A DNA stretch of 56,146 bases from Firmicutes bacterium UBA5324. Its GTDB lineage: Bacteria > Bacillota > Negativicutes > UBA11029. Positions 7,258-36,441 of the stretch are shown here, in pieces. The stretch is taken from positions 1 through 56,146 of the forward strand of contig DHRA01000025.1 in assembly GCA_002411145.1 (NCBI GenBank), read 5' to 3'. Each line of letters starts with the position of its first letter. The first letter of the stretch is position 1. The notes beneath the pieces were generated by a model. The model was not told the origin of the DNA. It worked only from the letters and a program-made list of their open reading frames with translations, and did not search any database. Made by a program: the position numbers and the translations under genes.

Positions 7258-7367
7258 AGGGAATAGGGAATAGAAAATGGGCTTTGCCCATTTTTTTATT
7301 TTATGGGGCCGGCGAAGCCGGCCATTTATCCTACTCCCCACTCCCCTGCTTTTTACGCCTATTCCCG
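7258..7367. repeat. family A hairpin repeat (GGGAATAGGGAAT / CCCACTCCC arms)
   Basis: Left arm agggaatagggaatag (7258-7273). Right arms ctactccccactcccc (7331-7346) and cctattccc (7358-7366). It encloses two small GC hairpins. Confidence 0.6.
7274..7298 (+). terminator. rho-independent terminator of argS
   Basis: aaaatgggc-ttt-gcccatttt followed by a T-run, embedded in the family A element. Confidence 0.7.
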
Positions 7368-7468
7368 AATTTTTGCCCTTTTTTCCTCCTAAATGGAGGA
7401 ATTTGCTATATTGTGGTGAATAGACGAAAAATAAACATTTGGCAAATGTTAGATAGGAGGCATCAACT

Positions 7469-7867
7469 ATGCAGCAAGGCGGAGATGAACTGGCGAGAAT
7501 GAGCGAAGCGGATCTGGCATATCAGGTGCTGAAGCAAAACGGACAGCCAAAATACTACAAGGACTTAATTGTTGATGTACTGACTACAAAGGGGAGAGGT
7601 GTGACGGACCCCCAGGGCACATTAATTTCCGGTGTCTACACGCAAATTACCATGGACAGCAGGTTTGTGCATTTGGGAAAGGGTATCTGGGGATTGGCCG
7701 AGTGGTATCCGCAGCGGGGAATACCCCGTCTGGTGGAAGTCTCTTCTGATGTAAAAGGGAAATCCTCCCTGGAGCGGGACAGGGCGTTACTGGCGGAGAT
7801 TCAGGATACTTACGGGCGTGAGCAGGACGGCTACAGTTTTCCGGAAAAGTTTGAAGAGACGGATTGA
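7469..7867 (+). CDS. rpoE: DNA-directed RNA polymerase delta subunit (HARE-HTH domain)
   Basis: 132 aa with AGGAGG 8 nt upstream. The N-terminal pattern (YKDLIVDVL...GVYTQITMDSRFVHLGKGIWGLAEWYP) matches RpoE delta, and the acidic C-terminus fits. It lies directly upstream of pyrG, as in Bacillus. Confidence 0.8.
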   Translation: MQQGGDELARMSEADLAYQVLKQNGQPKYYKDLIVDVLTTKGRGVTDPQGTLISGVYTQITMDSRFVHLGKGIWGLAEWYPQRGIPRLVEVSSDVKGKSSLERDRALLAEIQDTYGREQDGYSFPEKFEETD

Positions 7868-7892
7868 CCTACGGCGCATAAAAGTATAAAAT
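7864..7892 (+). promoter_or_regulatory. candidate sigma-A promoter for pyrG
   Basis: TTGACC (7864-7869), 17-nt spacer, TAAAAT (7887-7892). A GGG run at 7895-7897 follows the -10 box. Confidence 0.35.
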
Positions 7893-7945
7893 TAGGGACG
7901 TGATTTATACTAGTATTAGCGCAACGGCTTAACCAGGAGGTAATT

Positions 7946-9553
7946 ATGGCTAAATTTATATTTGTAACAGGGGGGGTAGTCTCTTCGCTCGGGAAGGGTA
8001 TAACTGCGGCCTCATTAGGGCGTTTGTTAAAAAGCCGGGGATTGAAGGTAACGGTGTTGAAGCTTGATCCCTATATTAATGTGGACCCGGGCACCATGAG
8101 CCCTTATCAGCATGGTGAGGTATTCGTAACGGAAGATGGCGGAGAAACTGATCTGGATCTTGGACACTATGAACGTTTTATTGATATTAATCTCAGTAAA
8201 TCGAACAATGTTACTACCGGAAAGATTTACGGTTCGGTGATAAATAAGGAACGCAAAGGCGATTACCTTGGCAGTACGGTGCAGGTTATCCCGCATATTA
8301 CCAACGAAATTAAAGAGCGGATTTATCGCGTGCCGAAGGAAGACAATGCGGACATTGTCATTACCGAGATTGGCGGCACGGTTGGCGATATTGAAAGTTT
8401 ACCTTTTCTGGAAGCCATTCGTCAGGTAAGAACAGACATCGGACGCCAGGACGTATTATACATACATGTCACGCTTGTGCCCTATATTTCCGCGGCGGGG
8501 GAATTGAAAACAAAACCCACCCAGCACAGCGTGAAGGAATTACGCAGCCTGGGTATTCATCCCAATGTAATCGTGTGCCGTACGGAAAAGCCTCTCTCCA
8601 AAGAGATGAGGGATAAACTGGCGCTCTTTTGCGATGTGGATGTCAATGCGGTCATTCAGTGTTTGGACGCGCAGTCCATTTATCAGGTGCCCCTCGTACT
8701 GGCCGCTGAGGGTTTGGACGACATTGTGCTGCAGCGGTTGAACCTCCAGGCTCCGGAACCGGATTTGCGGGCATGGGAACAGATGGTGGACAAGGTAATT
8801 AACCCCGGCAACAGGGTGAAAATTGCCTTGGTGGGCAAATATGTAGAATTGCACGACGCCTATATGAGCGTGGCGGAATCCTTACGCCATGCGGGTATTG
8901 CCCATGATGCGAAAATTGATATTGACTGGGTTAACTCCGAGGAACTGGAAGGGCAGGATGTGGCCCAAAGACTGGCCGGTGTTGACGGCGTGCTGGTGCC
9001 CGGAGGATTTGGCGACCGGGGTGTGGAGGGCAAGATAAAGGCGATTACCTTCGCACGGGAAAACAAAATTCCGTTTTTTGGGCTTTGCCTGGGCATGCAA
9101 TGCGCGGTGATTGAATTTGCCCGTAATGTATGTGGCATGAAAGGTGCGCATAGTACGGAGTTCTATCCTGACACCCCGTATCCGGTAATTGATTTAATGC
9201 CGGAACAGTTGACAGTGGAAGACAAAGGCGGCACCATGCGCCTGGGCGTGTATCCCTGCAAAGTTACGGAAGGGACAAAAACCTGGCAGGCTTATCAGGA
9301 CGAGATTGTCTACGAGCGGCATCGTCACCGCTTTGAATATAATAACCAATTCCGTGAGCAGTTAAGCGAAGCGGGGTTGCAGATCGGCGGCGCGTCACCC
9401 AACGGGCGATTGGTAGAAATTGTGGAGATAAGTGAACATCCCTGGTTTATCGGCACACAATTCCATCCGGAATTTAAATCCCGTCCCACCAACCCGCATC
9501 CTTTATTCAGAGATTTTATCGGAGCAGCTTTGGCTTATGCCAAAAGCAAATAG
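7946..9553 (+). CDS. pyrG: CTP synthase
   Basis: 535 aa. N-terminal [16 protein letters not shown] and the glutamine amidotransferase motif GLCLGMQ with HPEF. Confidence 0.97.
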
Positions 9554-9562
9554 CAAGAAAAC

Positions 9563-9596
9563 AGAGACTGTTGGTGCGAACCGGCAGTCTCTTTTA
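9563..9596 (+). terminator. rho-independent terminator of pyrG
   Basis: agagactgttgg ... ccggcagtctct followed by a short TTTT run. Confidence 0.55.
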
Positions 9597-34594: not shown

Positions 34595-34753
34595 CTTGCT
34601 GCCGGAGGATGGAACCTCTTTGCGAGGAAAACCTTGCTCCGGGCCGTTGCCGGTCATGATTTTTCTAGGGACAAGCCTTGGCGAAAAAAAGGATTTCCAA
34701 TTTTGTGGCGAGAAATGTTATACACTGGATATACTAATAATGAGGTGAGAAAT

Positions 34754-35245
34754 GTGCTGCGTGTGCTGTTTGTATGTACCGGAAATACCTGCCGCAGTCC
34801 CATGGCGGAGGCGTTGTTCCGGCAAATGATTCAGGCAGAAATGAGAGAACAGGATATGTTGACTATCTCGGCCGGGTTATCAGTCTGGGGAGACGCTCCG
34901 GCATCCGGTCAAGCGATAGCAGTTATGCGTAAACAGGGAGTTGATTTATCGTCGCACCGCAGCCGGTCCCTGACGCCTGAACTGGTAGAGGCGGCAGATA
35001 TAATACTGACAATGACAGGTGACCATAAACGGACTTTGTTGGCTTCGGTGCCGGAAGCGAAGGGAAAAGTGTTCACGCTTGCCGAGTTTTCCGGCGAAGG
35101 GTTTGCCGATGTGGCCGACCCCTATGGTGCTACGGAAGCCGTTTACCAGCACTGTGCCGACGAGATACGCCGGTGTTTGACAAAATCATGGGAAAAAATC
35201 CTGAAATTTCACAAAGACAATGCAGGGGAAAATACGTCTGCGTAG
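34754..35245 (+). CDS. ywlE: low-molecular-weight protein phosphatase (YwlE-type arginine/tyrosine phosphatase)
   Basis: GTG at 34754 is 6 nt after GAGGTG. CX5R(S/T) loop VLFVCTGNTCRSPMAE and the DPYG Asp loop. Confidence 0.88.
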   Translation: MLRVLFVCTGNTCRSPMAEALFRQMIQAEMREQDMLTISAGLSVWGDAPASGQAIAVMRKQGVDLSSHRSRSLTPELVEAADIILTMTGDHKRTLLASVPEAKGKVFTLAEFSGEGFADVADPYGATEAVYQHCADEIRRCLTKSWEKILKFHKDNAGENTSA

Positions 35246-35288
35246 AATTGTGTAAGAATGAATTTTTGCCCCTGGGAGGTAGATATCC

Positions 35289-35729
35289 GTGCGCGTGGCA
35301 ATCGGATCTGATCATGGCGGATTTCTTTTGAAAGAAGAGATTAAATCGCTATTGACGGAAATGCAGATTGAATTCAAAGATTTTGGCGCCTATTCCGCAG
35401 ACTCCGTTGATTATCCGGATATTGCGCGGGCGTTGTCCCTGGTCGTTGCCAGTGGTGAATATGACCGGGGTATTCTTCTGTGCGGCACCGGTATTGGTAT
35501 GTCCATCGCAGCCAATAAAATAAAGAATATCCGGGCTGCTTTAGTTCATGATGTATTTTCCGCCGTGGCCACCCGTGAACATAATGACAGCAATATATTA
35601 TGTATGGGTGAACGGGTAATTGGTTTTGGCCTCGCCCGTTTAATTACAAAGACCTGGTTAACGACTGAGTTTTCGGGAGGACGTCATGCCCGCCGCATTG
35701 CCAAACTCGAGCAGTCGGAGGGTTGTTGA
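35289..35729 (+). CDS. rpiB: ribose-5-phosphate isomerase B
   Basis: 146 aa with a GTG start after GGGAGG. IAIGSDHGG, LLCGTGIGMSIAANK and GERV motifs. Confidence 0.93.
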   Translation: MRVAIGSDHGGFLLKEEIKSLLTEMQIEFKDFGAYSADSVDYPDIARALSLVVASGEYDRGILLCGTGIGMSIAANKIKNIRAALVHDVFSAVATREHNDSNILCMGERVIGFGLARLITKTWLTTEFSGGRHARRIAKLEQSEGC

Positions 35730-36278
35730 ATGAAAAATTGGCAGTCCATCTCCGATGAAACGGCATGTGCTTTAGCGGAATTGCAGGCGGCAGCCGGGCT
35801 GTGCCGCGGGCAGATATTGGTCGTTGGCTGCAGCACCAGTGAAGTTGGCGGACAGCACATCGGTACCGCCGGTTCAGCGGAGGCAGCGCGGGCTATCATG
35901 CGTTCGCTCCTGCAGTTCGCGGAGGATACAGGTGTCAGACTGGCCATTCAGTGCTGTGAACATTTGAATCGCGCCTTGGTGGTGGAGGAAGAAACGGCGG
36001 CCCTCTATGGGCTGGAGATTGTAAGTGTCATACCTGTTAGTGGTGCCGGCGGGGCCTTGGCGGCCCAGGCCATGCAAGACATGCAAAAGGCGGTCGTTGT
36101 TGAGAGGATTCGCGCCCATGCCGGGCTCGATATCGGAGAGACATTGATCGGCATGCATTTAAGAACTGTGGCCGTACCGTTGCGCCTGTCGCGACGCAGT
36201 ATCGGTCAGGCCAGAATTTCGGCGGCAAAAACCCGCCCCAAATTAATCGGCGGCCCTCGTGCCGTATACGAAAAATAA
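35730..36278 (+). CDS. YwlG/UPF0340 (TIGR01440-type) protein
   Basis: 182 aa. GQILVVGCSTSEVGGQHIGTAGS is the family hallmark. The synteny rpiB-ywlG-glyA also fits. Confidence 0.78.
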   Translation: MKNWQSISDETACALAELQAAAGLCRGQILVVGCSTSEVGGQHIGTAGSAEAARAIMRSLLQFAEDTGVRLAIQCCEHLNRALVVEEETAALYGLEIVSVIPVSGAGGALAAQAMQDMQKAVVVERIRAHAGLDIGETLIGMHLRTVAVPLRLSRRSIGQARISAAKTRPKLIGGPRAVYEK

Positions 36279-36286
36279 TAAATGAC

Positions 36287-36441
36287 GGGAATAGGGAATA
36301 GGGAAACAGGGAATAGCCAAAAGGAATAGGGAATGGGGAATAGGGAGTGGGGTATACCGGGAAAGGTATGAAATCCCATACGCTACACCTTATTTCCCGT
36401 TCTTTGCGTACTACTCCCGTGCACCTGTTCGCTGCTCCCTA
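36287..36441. repeat. family A repeat, multi-unit copy
   Basis: gggaatagggaatagggaaacagggaatagccaaaaggaatagggaatggggaatagggagtgggg, followed by a degenerate pyrimidine-rich arm (ccttatttcccgttc...ctactcccgt...gctccctat). Confidence 0.55.

What the first reader, a model, noticed from the sequence alone, without database searches (positions are those of the whole stretch)
7258..36441. Family A intergenic hairpin repeats (GGGAATAGGGAAT arm / CCCACTCCCCATTCCC arm) at many operon junctions
Copies occur at 7258-7367 (after argS), 15778-15852 (tal/glpX), 19971-20164 (radical SAM/rpmE), 36287-36441 (ywlG/glyA), a half-copy at 51463-51477 (after murA) and one at 56135-56146 (window end). Each starts within a few nt of a stop codon. 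Each has a purine-rich 5' arm built of degenerate GGGAATA/GGGGAGTA units, a GC-rich mini-hairpin or other insert in the loop, and a complementary pyrimidine-rich 3' arm. All copies have the same orientation relative to transcription. That points to function at the RNA level, where G-U pairing works in only one orientation. Candidate roles are terminator or attenuator, 3' stabiliser, or a processing site. This is a high density for 56 kb, and I cannot name the family.
Basis: seen in the sequence. Interest (0 to 1): 0.6.

Follow-up and report, generated by a model that had tools for sequence, protein, structure and literature searches.

The report
Heptamer-repeat hairpins after stop codons
The repeats are real: short arrays of a G-rich 7-base unit sit just after stop codons and face a C-rich mirror array, a repeat type already described in Xanthomonas and Nostoc, whose function is unknown, here found in a Sporomusa-like anaerobe and evolving too fast to look like a conserved regulatory RNA.

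Summary
Six intergenic sites carry tandem GGGA[A/G]T[A/G] heptamers starting 5-9 nt after a stop codon, or overlapping it. Four have a complementary C-rich arm in the window. A fifth, cut by the window end, has one in other assemblies.

This is not an unnamed family. 24 of 28 units fit (GGGANTN)n, the G-rich heptamer repeat that Rehm et al. 2015 described in Xanthomonas and Nostoc: intergenic, next to stop codons, often in convergent inverted pairs, function unknown. The host is an uncultured Sporomusaceae-like Negativicute.

What I add:
- Arms change by whole units between strains.
- The interior of one copy is replaced in another strain by the two-hairpin module found inside a different copy.
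- Related species carry different units, or nothing, at the same junctions.
- In about 240 loci from many phyla, G-then-C order beats C-then-G 76 to 4.

A G..C inverted repeat reads the same on both strands. In 46 hairpins the sense strand folds no better than the antisense strand (p=0.88). Only 4 of 46 are followed by a T-run, so the outer stems are not canonical terminators.

Best reading: fast-evolving, REP/MITE-like repeat DNA that forms very stable stem-loops between cistrons. Any function is unproven, and no usable RNA data exist.

The parts
7258..7367 (+). Copy A1, after argS. G arm 7258-7273 (AGGGAATAGGGAATAG). Interior with two terminator-like hairpins: 7272-7296 followed by a T-run, and 7307-7323. 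C arm 7330-7347 (CCTACTCCCCACTCCCCT) followed by TTTTT. One detached unit CTATTCCC at 7359-7367.
   Evidence: Antisense RNA folds better than sense (-50.5 against -38.5 kcal/mol).
15778..15852 (+). Copy A2, between tal and glpX. G arm 15779-15806, inner GC-rich hairpin, C arm 15832-15851. Then TTTATT, the glpX ribosome-binding site GGGAG, and the GTG start at 15875.
   Evidence: -48.1 kcal/mol, z -4.75; antisense -48.3. Conserved with point changes in a strain whose GlpX is 97% identical (L132).
19970..20183 (+). Copy A3, between the radical-SAM gene and rpmE. G arm of 7 units 19970-20020, which supplies the ORF's TAG stop. Small hairpin 20022-20040. Nested REP-like GTAG element about 20044-20131. 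C arm of 4 units 20132-20164. A 19-nt extra C-rich piece 20165-20183.
   Evidence: -121 kcal/mol, z -7.8. Strain variants: 3+3 units in L135; a different interior in L134/L137.
36287..36441 (+). Copy A4, between ywlG and glyA. Long G arm 36287-36356 (about 9 units with one interruption), central hairpin, degenerate T-rich 3' arm about 36385-36441 that runs up to the glyA ribosome-binding site.
   Evidence: sense -70.6, z -6.2; antisense -52.0, z -3.1. This is the only copy with a clear sense-strand advantage.
51463..51477 (+). Copy A5, after murA. Half copy GGGAATAGGAAAC (1.5 units), followed by a terminator hairpin (51494-51551) and a hairpin of another repeat family.
56135..56146 (+). Copy A6, after flgG, cut by the window end. 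In other assemblies it is a complete short hairpin: G arm, TTTACACC, then C arm CCACTCCCCATTC(A/C)CTA(T/C)TCCC.
   Evidence: The G arm has 2 G-tracts in L129 and 4 in L130 and L131, with an identical FlgG protein.

Best explanation
Family A is the local form of a widespread class of G-tract heptanucleotide simple-sequence repeats. The unit is GGGA[A/G]T[A/G], which fits the (GGGANTN)n type.

Anatomy (shown). The arrays lie in intergenic spacers as convergent inverted pairs. The G-rich array starts directly after the upstream stop codon. The C-rich array lies before the next gene. Between them is an intrinsic terminator, a small hairpin or another small palindromic repeat.

Behaviour (shown).
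- Arrays gain and lose whole 7-nt units between strains.
- The two arms vary independently.
- The interior can be exchanged between loci.
- The same composite (arms plus a two-hairpin module) occurs at two different loci.
- Related species carry a different unit, or nothing, at the same junction.

The element therefore behaves as fast-evolving, dispersed, REP/MITE-like repeat DNA. It does not behave as a conserved structured RNA.

Effect (inferred). Any transcript that crosses a full copy will fold into a very stable stem-loop (about -40 to -120 kcal/mol) that brings the stop codon and the next ribosome-binding site together. The most likely effect is that of an intercistronic or 3' stem-loop: a barrier to 3'-5' exonucleases or an insulator, as for REP elements. 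Alternatively the insertion is tolerated because the closed stem makes it nearly silent. It does not work as a canonical intrinsic terminator.

Unexplained. Why the G-rich arm always comes first.
For: Identity of the repeat:
- 24 of 28 units fit GGGANTN.
- All six sites are intergenic and lie 5-9 nt after a stop or overlap it.
- Four or five occur as convergent inverted pairs.
- These are the features Rehm et al. report for Xanthomonas and Nostoc.

Unit-wise polymorphism:
- A6 has 2 G-tracts in one strain and 4 in two others, with identical FlgG.
- A3 has 7+4 units in the window and 3+3 in L135. Indels in another strain sum to 14 nt.

Interior exchange:
- In L134/L137 the interior of A3 is replaced by AAAAATGGGCTGCGCCCATTTTTTATATTTACCGGCAAAGCCGGC.
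- This aligns with the interior of A1 in the window.

Turnover between species at the tal/glpX junction:
- (GGGGCTA)n..(CCCCAGT)n in a relative whose GlpX is 87% identical.
- Only TAG GAACTAGGGGCTAGG in a relative at 85%.
- Nothing in Sporolituus.

Generality:
- The same architecture appears in at least 240 loci from cyanobacteria, Acidobacteria, Gemmatimonadota, Xanthomonadales, Firmicutes and metagenome contigs of 34-71% GC.
- G..C against C..G order is 19:1 and 57:3.
- The 5' end of G arrays abuts a same-strand stop at a median of 21 nt and 7.5 nt in the two samples.

Not shaped as sense RNA:
- Sense against antisense folding is 23:21, p=0.88.
- Arm lengths are uncorrelated, rho 0.006.
- No Rfam family matches.
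Against: - No transcript data could be obtained, so the stem-loop effect is pure inference.
- Genome-wide sharing of the same units at many loci, and across phyla, is hard to get from local slippage alone. It points to active spread or to selection for the sequence, that is, a function or a binding factor that I did not identify.
- No transposase, target-site duplication or fixed element ends were found.
- A4 folds 19-20 kcal/mol better as sense RNA through G-U pairs, which would fit RNA-level maintenance of that one copy.
- The cross-phylum statistics rest on my crude ORF caller and on loci selected by two seed words.
Confidence: 0.6

Rival explanations
1. A dedicated cis-acting RNA element (terminator, attenuator, 3' stabiliser or processing site) selected in the sense transcript.
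For: - Position directly after stop codons.
- Very stable predicted folds.
- A4 folds much better as sense RNA.
- In Xanthomonas RNA-seq, assembled transcripts start or stop at G4-capable repeats more often than at control repeats.
Against: - There is no sense-strand folding advantage overall.
- A T-run follows only 4 of 46 outer stems, and the next gene often starts within 40 nt.
- Unit number, unit sequence and interior differ between strains and species.
- Arm lengths are uncorrelated.
- There is no Rfam match.
Confidence: 0.15
2. G-quadruplex elements. The G arm forms a G4 in DNA (non-template strand) or in RNA just after the stop codon, and that structure is the functional unit. The C arm is a competitor or switch.
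For: - All six canonical G4 motifs in the 56-kb window lie in Family A.
- Oligonucleotides of the related units form G4 in vitro, and four units are preferred in Xanthomonas.
- Unpaired arrays after stops are G-rich on the sense strand 86:9.
Against: - A1, A5 and the window's A6 have fewer than four G-tracts.
- Among arrays not selected by the seed word, counts fall steadily from 3 to 6 tracts with no peak at 4.
- In full copies the C arm would outcompete a G4.
- Other repeat-armed hairpin families in the same window have no G-tracts.
Confidence: 0.12
3. A non-autonomous mobile element (MITE- or REPIN-like) moved by a transposase encoded elsewhere in the genome. The heptamer arrays would be its terminal inverted repeats or its insertion target.
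For: - The same composite (arms plus the two-hairpin module) occurs at two loci.
- The interior is swapped at one locus between strains.
- Units are homogeneous within a genome but differ between related species.
- Other lineages carry their own conserved interior inside the same arms.
- Concentric layers of different repeat families occur (L147).
- From memory: Elhai et al. 2008 on very small mobile repeats in cyanobacteria. The citation was seen; the paper was not readable here.
Against: - No target-site duplication is visible at the tal/glpX filled-against-empty comparison.
- Element ends are not fixed.
- The arms vary by slippage.
- No transposase is seen in the window or its flanks.
Confidence: 0.13

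Closest known systems
G-rich heptameric repeats GGGAATC (Xanthomonas) and GGGGA(C/T)T (Nostoc), defined as (GGGANTN)n; Rehm et al. 2015, PMC4692102
   Same: - 7-nt unit with a G3-4 tract, and positions 1-4 and 6 conserved.
- About 90% intergenic.
[quoted passage not shown]
- Frequent convergent inverted pairs (70 of 186 in Xanthomonas campestris pv. campestris, Xcc).
- Unit number varies between related genomes.
- Function unknown.
   Different: - Host is a Negativicute.
- Position 7 is A or G, not C.
- Mixed units occur within one array.
- The G strand carries TAG in all three frames and sometimes supplies the stop codon.
- Interiors hold exchangeable hairpin modules.
- No preference for four units was seen in my wider sample.
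STRR (short tandemly repeated repetitive) heptamers of heterocystous cyanobacteria, e.g. CCCCAGT. Mazel et al. 1990, recalled from memory; cited as ref. 39 in PMC4692102.
   Same: - Tandem heptamers in intergenic DNA.
- The 87%-GlpX relative (L126) uses exactly (CCCCAGT)n / (GGGGCTA)n at the tal/glpX junction.
- (GGGAATA)n itself is most common in cyanobacterial genomes.
   Different: STRR was defined in cyanobacteria as a fingerprinting repeat. The hairpin pairing and the stop-codon position are not part of its definition.
REP / BIME / REPIN elements of proteobacteria
   Same: - Dispersed extragenic palindromes at 3' ends of genes and between cistrons.
- Very stable stem-loops.
- Proposed to protect upstream mRNA.
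- Fast turnover.
   Different: - REPs are fixed 20-40-nt imperfect palindromes with a GTAG or CGTC head and an associated RAYT transposase (PMC3733652, PMC3116915).
- Family A arms are variable-length tandem repeats, and no RAYT was seen.
- A separate GTAG-headed palindrome, nested in A3, is the better REP candidate.
Other bacterial heptamer arrays: TAACTGA repeats of Beggiatoaceae, cyanobacteria and Bacteroidetes (PMC4679880); four-unit GGGACCG elements of Geobacter metallireducens (PMC2700814)
   Same: Intergenic tandem heptamers in many copies per genome, with an odd cross-phylum distribution and unknown function.
   Different: - TAACTGA arrays sit just upstream of start codons and are almost never inverted.
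- The Geobacter elements also lie inside genes.
Rho-independent terminators
   Same: The interior of A1 (7272-7296 plus T-run, and 7307-7323) is a canonical terminator-like pair. The elements occupy the usual terminator position.
   Different: The outer G/C stems are far longer and stronger than terminators. They lack a T-run in 42 of 46 cases and often lie inside operons.

Membership tests
(GGGANTN)n G-rich heptameric repeats (Rehm et al. 2015) | At least two tandem 7-nt units with a G-tract; positions 1-4 (GGGA) and 6 (T) conserved | tested here: met
   24 of 28 units fit GGGANTN. The units are GGGAATA x10, GGGAGTG x5, GGGAATG x5 and GGGAGTA x4. Period 7 by Tandem Repeats Finder.
(GGGANTN)n G-rich heptameric repeats (Rehm et al. 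2015) | Contains the GGGAATC (Xanthomonas) or GGGGA(C/T)T (Nostoc) unit itself | tested here: not met
   No GGGAATC unit is present; position 7 is A or G. It is therefore a sequence variant of the class, not the same repeat.
(GGGANTN)n G-rich heptameric repeats (Rehm et al. 2015) | Strongly intergenic, within about 50 bp downstream of a stop codon with the G-rich strand as coding strand | tested here: met
   6 of 6 copies lie 5-9 nt after the stop or overlap it. Wider sample: 86:9, and 54:5 with the strict control.
(GGGANTN)n G-rich heptameric repeats (Rehm et al. 2015) | Frequent convergent inverted pairs (one G-rich array on each strand) | tested here: met
   A1-A4 and A6. 76 convergent against 4 divergent pairs in about 240 loci.
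(GGGANTN)n G-rich heptameric repeats (Rehm et al. 2015) | Unit number varies between related genomes | tested here: met
   A6 has 2 against 4 G-tracts. A3 has 7+4 against 3+3 against 4+4 units. Indels are listed.
(GGGANTN)n G-rich heptameric repeats (Rehm et al. 2015) | Forms G-quadruplexes in vitro; preference for four units | tested here: inconclusive
   A G4 sequence motif is present in A2, A3 and A4 but not in A1, A5 or the window's A6. There is no peak at four tracts in unseeded arrays. Biophysics is not testable here.
REP / REPIN | Fixed-length 20-40-nt imperfect palindrome with a conserved GTAG or CGTC head | tested here: not met
   The arms are variable tandem arrays of 2 to 9 units.
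REP / REPIN | Associated RAYT (IS200/IS605-like) transposase in the genome | not testable with these tools
   Only about 75 kb of this genome was available. No transposase appears among the called genes.
MITE | Defined terminal inverted repeats flanked by a target-site duplication | tested here: not met
   No direct repeat flanks the element where the tal/glpX junction can be compared with relatives that lack it.
Intrinsic (Rho-independent) terminator | GC-rich stem-loop immediately followed by a T-run on the sense strand | tested here: not met
   Outer stems: four or more T within 12 nt in 4 of 46. Met only by the interior hairpins of A1.
Any Rfam RNA family | Covariance-model match at the gathering score | tested here: not met
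   0 hits at gathering. In E-value mode, only long-hairpin miRNA models far below threshold.

The most novel reading that the evidence does not exclude
G-then-C polar heptamer hairpins are a near-universal bacterial intergenic device. Either a conserved factor recognises GGGANTN arrays on the strand that runs from a gene boundary into the spacer, or a DNA-level copying mechanism builds them. The arrays would then serve as landing pads or carriers for tiny exchangeable hairpin cassettes, including terminators, that move between loci and perhaps between phyla.
Probability: 0.15. Interest if true: 0.75.

Novelty: new member of a known kind. Interest (0 to 1): 0.4.

Why it matters
Heptamer repeats of this type are among the most abundant non-coding features of many bacterial genomes. 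Only one paper in the searchable library treats them in detail, and their function is unknown.

This case shows several things:
- The class reaches the Firmicutes (Negativicutes).
- The G-first order is almost absolute across phyla (76:4).
- The arms evolve by unit slippage while the interiors are exchanged between loci.
- The hairpins are not shaped as sense-strand RNA and are not canonical terminators.

That narrows the hypotheses worth testing. It also warns annotators that these sites break short-read assemblies and can supply or shift stop codons.

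Tried and rejected
RNA evidence
- The only 'RNA' run that holds the region (X8) gives the same multi-gene contigs, breaks and variants as the DNA run from the same sample (X9), so it says nothing about transcript ends.
- Three groundwater metatranscriptomes gave almost no coverage.
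- Contigs break at these repeats in DNA runs too, so contig ends cannot be read as 3' ends.

Rfam
- Nothing at gathering score. Only spurious long-hairpin miRNA hits in E-value mode.

Genome-wide survey in this organism
- Not possible. I used about 240 loci from other genomes as a proxy.

Ideas rejected or not supported
- Stops in all frames as the reason for the strand bias. GGGAATA arrays carry TAG in all three frames, but the Xanthomonas unit GGGAATC has no stop and shows the same bias.
- Rho avoidance of C-rich RNA as the universal reason. Cyanobacteria lack Rho (abstract of PMC12642595) yet carry most of these arrays.
- Selection for matched arms. Arm lengths are uncorrelated.
- Preference for four G-tracts. 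Not seen.

Other dead ends
- Sporomusa ovata as a cultured proxy: no Family A copy in 21 kb.
- Elhai et al. 2008 could not be read.
- I did not build a covariance model, because arms of variable unit number do not align meaningfully.

Full report
1. WHAT IS IN THE SEQUENCE

Each begins with tandem units GGGAATA, GGGAGTA, GGGAATG or GGGAGTG.

The gap between the stop codon and the first GGG is:
- A1, after argS: 7 nt.
- A2, tal/glpX: 7 nt.
- A3: none. The radical-SAM ORF ends at a TAG inside the array.
- A4, ywlG/glyA: 8 nt.
- A5, after murA: 5 nt.
- A6, after flgG: 9 nt.

GGGAATAGGGAAT with up to two mismatches occurs 22 times against 2.3 expected; 0 of 100 shuffles reach 22. Tandem Repeats Finder calls period-7 arrays in A3 and A4.

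A1 to A4 have a pyrimidine-rich 3' arm made of CCCCACT, CCCCATT and CCCTACT. The A3 arms are 31 nt long and 90% complementary. All four fold far better than shuffled sequence (z -3.5 to -7.8; -44 to -121 kcal/mol). A6 is cut by the window end, but it is a complete short hairpin in three other assemblies.

The same sequences recur in independent assemblies from several metagenomes.

2. HOST AND CONTEXT

The window matches contigs from fermentation, sludge, groundwater and sediment metagenomes. Its GlpX is 78% identical to those of Thermosinus and Sporolituus and 75-76% identical to those of Sporomusa. The host is therefore an uncultured Sporomusaceae-like Negativicute. One NCBI MAG, GCA_035561415.1, carries an identical L31 protein.

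All genes in the window are on the + strand and GC skew is positive throughout. The window alone cannot separate transcription from replication direction.

Family A is not the only repeat-armed hairpin here:
- CGCAGAG/CTCTGCG hairpins at 18363-18435 and 51556-51782.
- A TGACTCC array at 9680-9703.
- A 29-nt-arm hairpin at 23549-23618.

All of them have the purine-rich arm first.

3. WHAT KIND OF THING IT IS

24 of the 28 units fit GGGANTN. That is the consensus Rehm et al. 2015 (PMC4692102) gave for G-rich heptameric repeats in Xanthomonas (GGGAATC) and Nostoc (GGGGA(C/T)T). They report:
- 89-93% of repeats are intergenic.
- 70 of 186 in X. campestris form convergent inverted pairs.
- Unit number varies between related genomes.
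- The oligonucleotides form G4 in vitro.
- No function was identified.

Family A meets every positional and structural criterion. It differs only in unit sequence. It is a new member of a described class, not an unnamed family.

4. HOW WIDESPREAD IT IS

About two thirds are cyanobacteria. The rest include Acidobacteriaceae, Longimicrobium, Xanthomonadales, and Selenomonadaceae, Oscillospiraceae and Ruminococcus MAGs.

GGGAGTAGGGAATGGGG returned at least 120 metagenome contigs of 34-71% GC. By eye they show the same architecture: stop codon, mixed G-rich units, a loop or insert, then a C-rich arm.

5. EVOLUTION BETWEEN STRAINS

A6, with an identical FlgG protein:
- GGGAATAGGG in one assembly.
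- GGGAATAGGGAGTAGGGAGTAGGG in a second.
- GGGAATAGGGAATAGGGAATAGGG in a third.

A3, with an identical L31 protein:
- 7+4 units in the window.
- 3+3 units in L135.
- In L134/L137, 4+4 units and a completely different interior.

That L134/L137 interior is AAAAATGGGCTGCGCCCATTTTTTATATTTACCGGCAAAGCCGGC. It aligns with the two-hairpin interior of A1 in the window. The whole composite (arms plus terminator-like module) is therefore a dispersed repeat, and interiors are exchangeable at a fixed locus.

In a sediment strain, contig indels in the A3 G arm sum to 14 nt and the 19-nt piece at 20165-20183 is missing.

6. EVOLUTION BETWEEN SPECIES

At the tal/glpX junction:
- A strain with 97% GlpX identity keeps A2 with point changes.
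- A relative at 87% has (GGGGCTA)n..(CCCCAGT)n.
- A relative at 85% has only TAG GAACTAGGGGCTAGG, with no C arm.
- Sporolituus has a 31-nt spacer with no repeat.

After the radical-SAM gene, the 87% relative has (GTTAGGT)n starting at its TAG stop.

The position recurs but the unit is species-specific. Local slippage alone does not predict that. It implies spread or homogenisation within a genome.

7. TEST OF THE RNA-ORIENTATION ARGUMENT

A G-arm...C-arm inverted repeat reads G-arm first on both strands. The shared 'orientation' of the hairpins therefore carries no information about transcription.

The proper test is whether mismatches are G-U compatible on the sense strand.
- In the window and its strain variants the answer is mixed: A4 favours sense by 20 kcal/mol; A1, A3 in L134 and A6 favour antisense by 2-13; A2 and A3 in the window are neutral.
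- In 46 hairpins from other genomes where one side abuts a stop codon, sense folds better 23 times and antisense 21 times (Wilcoxon p=0.88).
- Arm lengths are uncorrelated (Spearman 0.006).

I see no signature of selection on the sense RNA stem.

8. TEST OF THE TERMINATOR IDEA

Only 4 of 46 outer stems are followed by four or more T within 12 nt. T content there is at background level. In 13 of 32 cases the next co-directional gene starts within 40 nt, often with its ribosome-binding site directly after the C arm, as in A2 and A4. The outer stems are not canonical intrinsic terminators, and many sit inside operons. The interior of A1 does hold two terminator-like hairpins.

9. WHAT IS ORIENTED

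Adjacent G-rich and C-rich arrays within 300 nt are in G..C order 76 times and in C..G order 4 times.

The 5' end of a G-rich array abuts a same-strand stop codon at a median of 21 nt and 7.5 nt in the two samples. Its 3' side is typically 85-158 nt from the next gene.

For arrays without a detected partner:
- Within 40 nt after a stop, G is on the sense strand 86:9.
- With ORFs of at least 150 aa and the stop outside the array, the count is 54:5.
- Within 40 nt before a start, C is on the sense strand 20:4.

All of this collapses to one geometric rule: the G-rich strand runs 5' to 3' from the gene boundary into the spacer, whatever the gene's direction. I cannot explain this rule.
- Rho avoidance fails for cyanobacteria.
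- Stop codons within the unit fail for GGGAATC.
- A G4 requirement is not supported by tract-number counts.

10. MOST LIKELY MECHANISM

Shown: tandem-repeat arrays that resize by whole units, in convergent pairs around exchangeable small hairpins, placed directly after stop codons, with fast turnover.

Inferred: in RNA the closed stem brings the stop codon and the next ribosome-binding site together. The element is then either nearly silent, or acts like a REP-type intercistronic or 3' stem-loop that blocks 3'-5' decay.

Rivals are a dedicated sense-RNA element, a G4 device, and a transposase-driven mobile element. None is excluded. I rate each lower, for the reasons given in the rival entries.

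No transcript data exist for this organism. The one 'RNA' run behaves like DNA, and the others have no coverage.

11. VERDICT

This is a real, non-random feature and a new member of a known but functionally unexplained class. Its RNA-orientation reasoning and its terminator guess are not supported. Interest is moderate.

Noticed in passing
window 18363-18435 and 51556-51782; also L001 450-500, L132 4140-4215, L128 5445-5530, L260 11088-11175, L125 19410-19440: A second hairpin family with repeat arms: AACCGCAGAG(N)CGCAGAG ... CTCTGCG(N)CTCTGCGGTT, period 8-9. It is shared by the window organism, Sporolituus, Sporomusa ovata and other relatives. The 166-nt interior of the 51556-51782 copy is absent in a groundwater strain (joint 51583->51749).
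   Followed up: partly
window 1363-1406, 18465-18600, 20044-20131: GTAG-headed palindromes (GTAGGGTGGGCA...TGCCCACCCTAC) that look like true REP/REPIN elements. One is nested inside the loop of Family A copy A3.
   Followed up: partly
window 24685-24730; also L001 4415-4480, just upstream of window position 1: A repeat of about 46 nt directly after a stop codon (ACTTGTCTGGCTATGCCAGACTTCGGGGCTTCAGGTGGAG...). Its contig depth is 7-17 times that of its surroundings in four metagenomes, and many contigs end in it. It is probably another dispersed palindromic element.
   Followed up: no
L001 2355-2545, L129 18985-19170, L125 1650-1835 (flanks of the window and a relative): A conserved element of about 170 nt upstream of genes. 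It has a variable long outer stem showing 6 compensatory pairs and a conserved core (GCAAGGCAAGGCGGAGGAGG...GTAAGCCGACGACAACGCAG). It has no Rfam match and may be an undescribed leader or ncRNA.
   Followed up: partly
window 19970-19986: The radical-SAM ORF runs into the heptamer array and stops at a TAG supplied by the repeat. Its last residues differ between strains..KFLGNRG* in the window..KFLGNRE* in L135..RFLKNGE* in L134.
   Followed up: yes
window 23549-23618: A hairpin with 29-nt arms, 86% complementary (z -7.1), that spans the end of one gene's spacer and the annotated GTG start of the next ORF (23593). The purine-rich arm comes first, and the arms are not heptameric.
   Followed up: no
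window 9680-9703 and 20604-20636: Further period-7 arrays of other units, (TGACTCC)3.4 and (TCCCACC)4.7. Each has a weakly complementary purine-rich partner upstream. Only the first folds better than shuffles (z -2.4).
   Followed up: partly
L126 9896-10000, L127 11624-11680, L126 3700-3756 and 7393-7430: The 87%-GlpX relative uses other heptamer families at the same junctions: (GGGGCTA)n/(CCCCAGT)n, identical to cyanobacterial STRR1 as I recall it, and (GTTAGGT)n/(CCTAACA)n. In these the TAG stop codon is the first three bases of the first unit.
   Followed up: partly
L147 5225-5420; L142, L151, L157, L174, L177, L186, L192, L193: Metagenome contigs show concentric layers of different repeat families around one centre (CGCAGAG, then GGAAGTA, then GGGAATA). 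One lineage has its own conserved interior (..GTTGTTCGTAATCTAAGCG..CGCTATGCTTTCTAACAAC..) inside the same heptamer arms at many loci.
   Followed up: no
run X8 on window 5000-24999: A public run labelled as a metatranscriptome yields the same 12.7-kb multi-gene contigs, breakpoints and variants as the DNA run from the same sample. It behaves as DNA, or as heavily DNA-contaminated RNA.
   Followed up: yes
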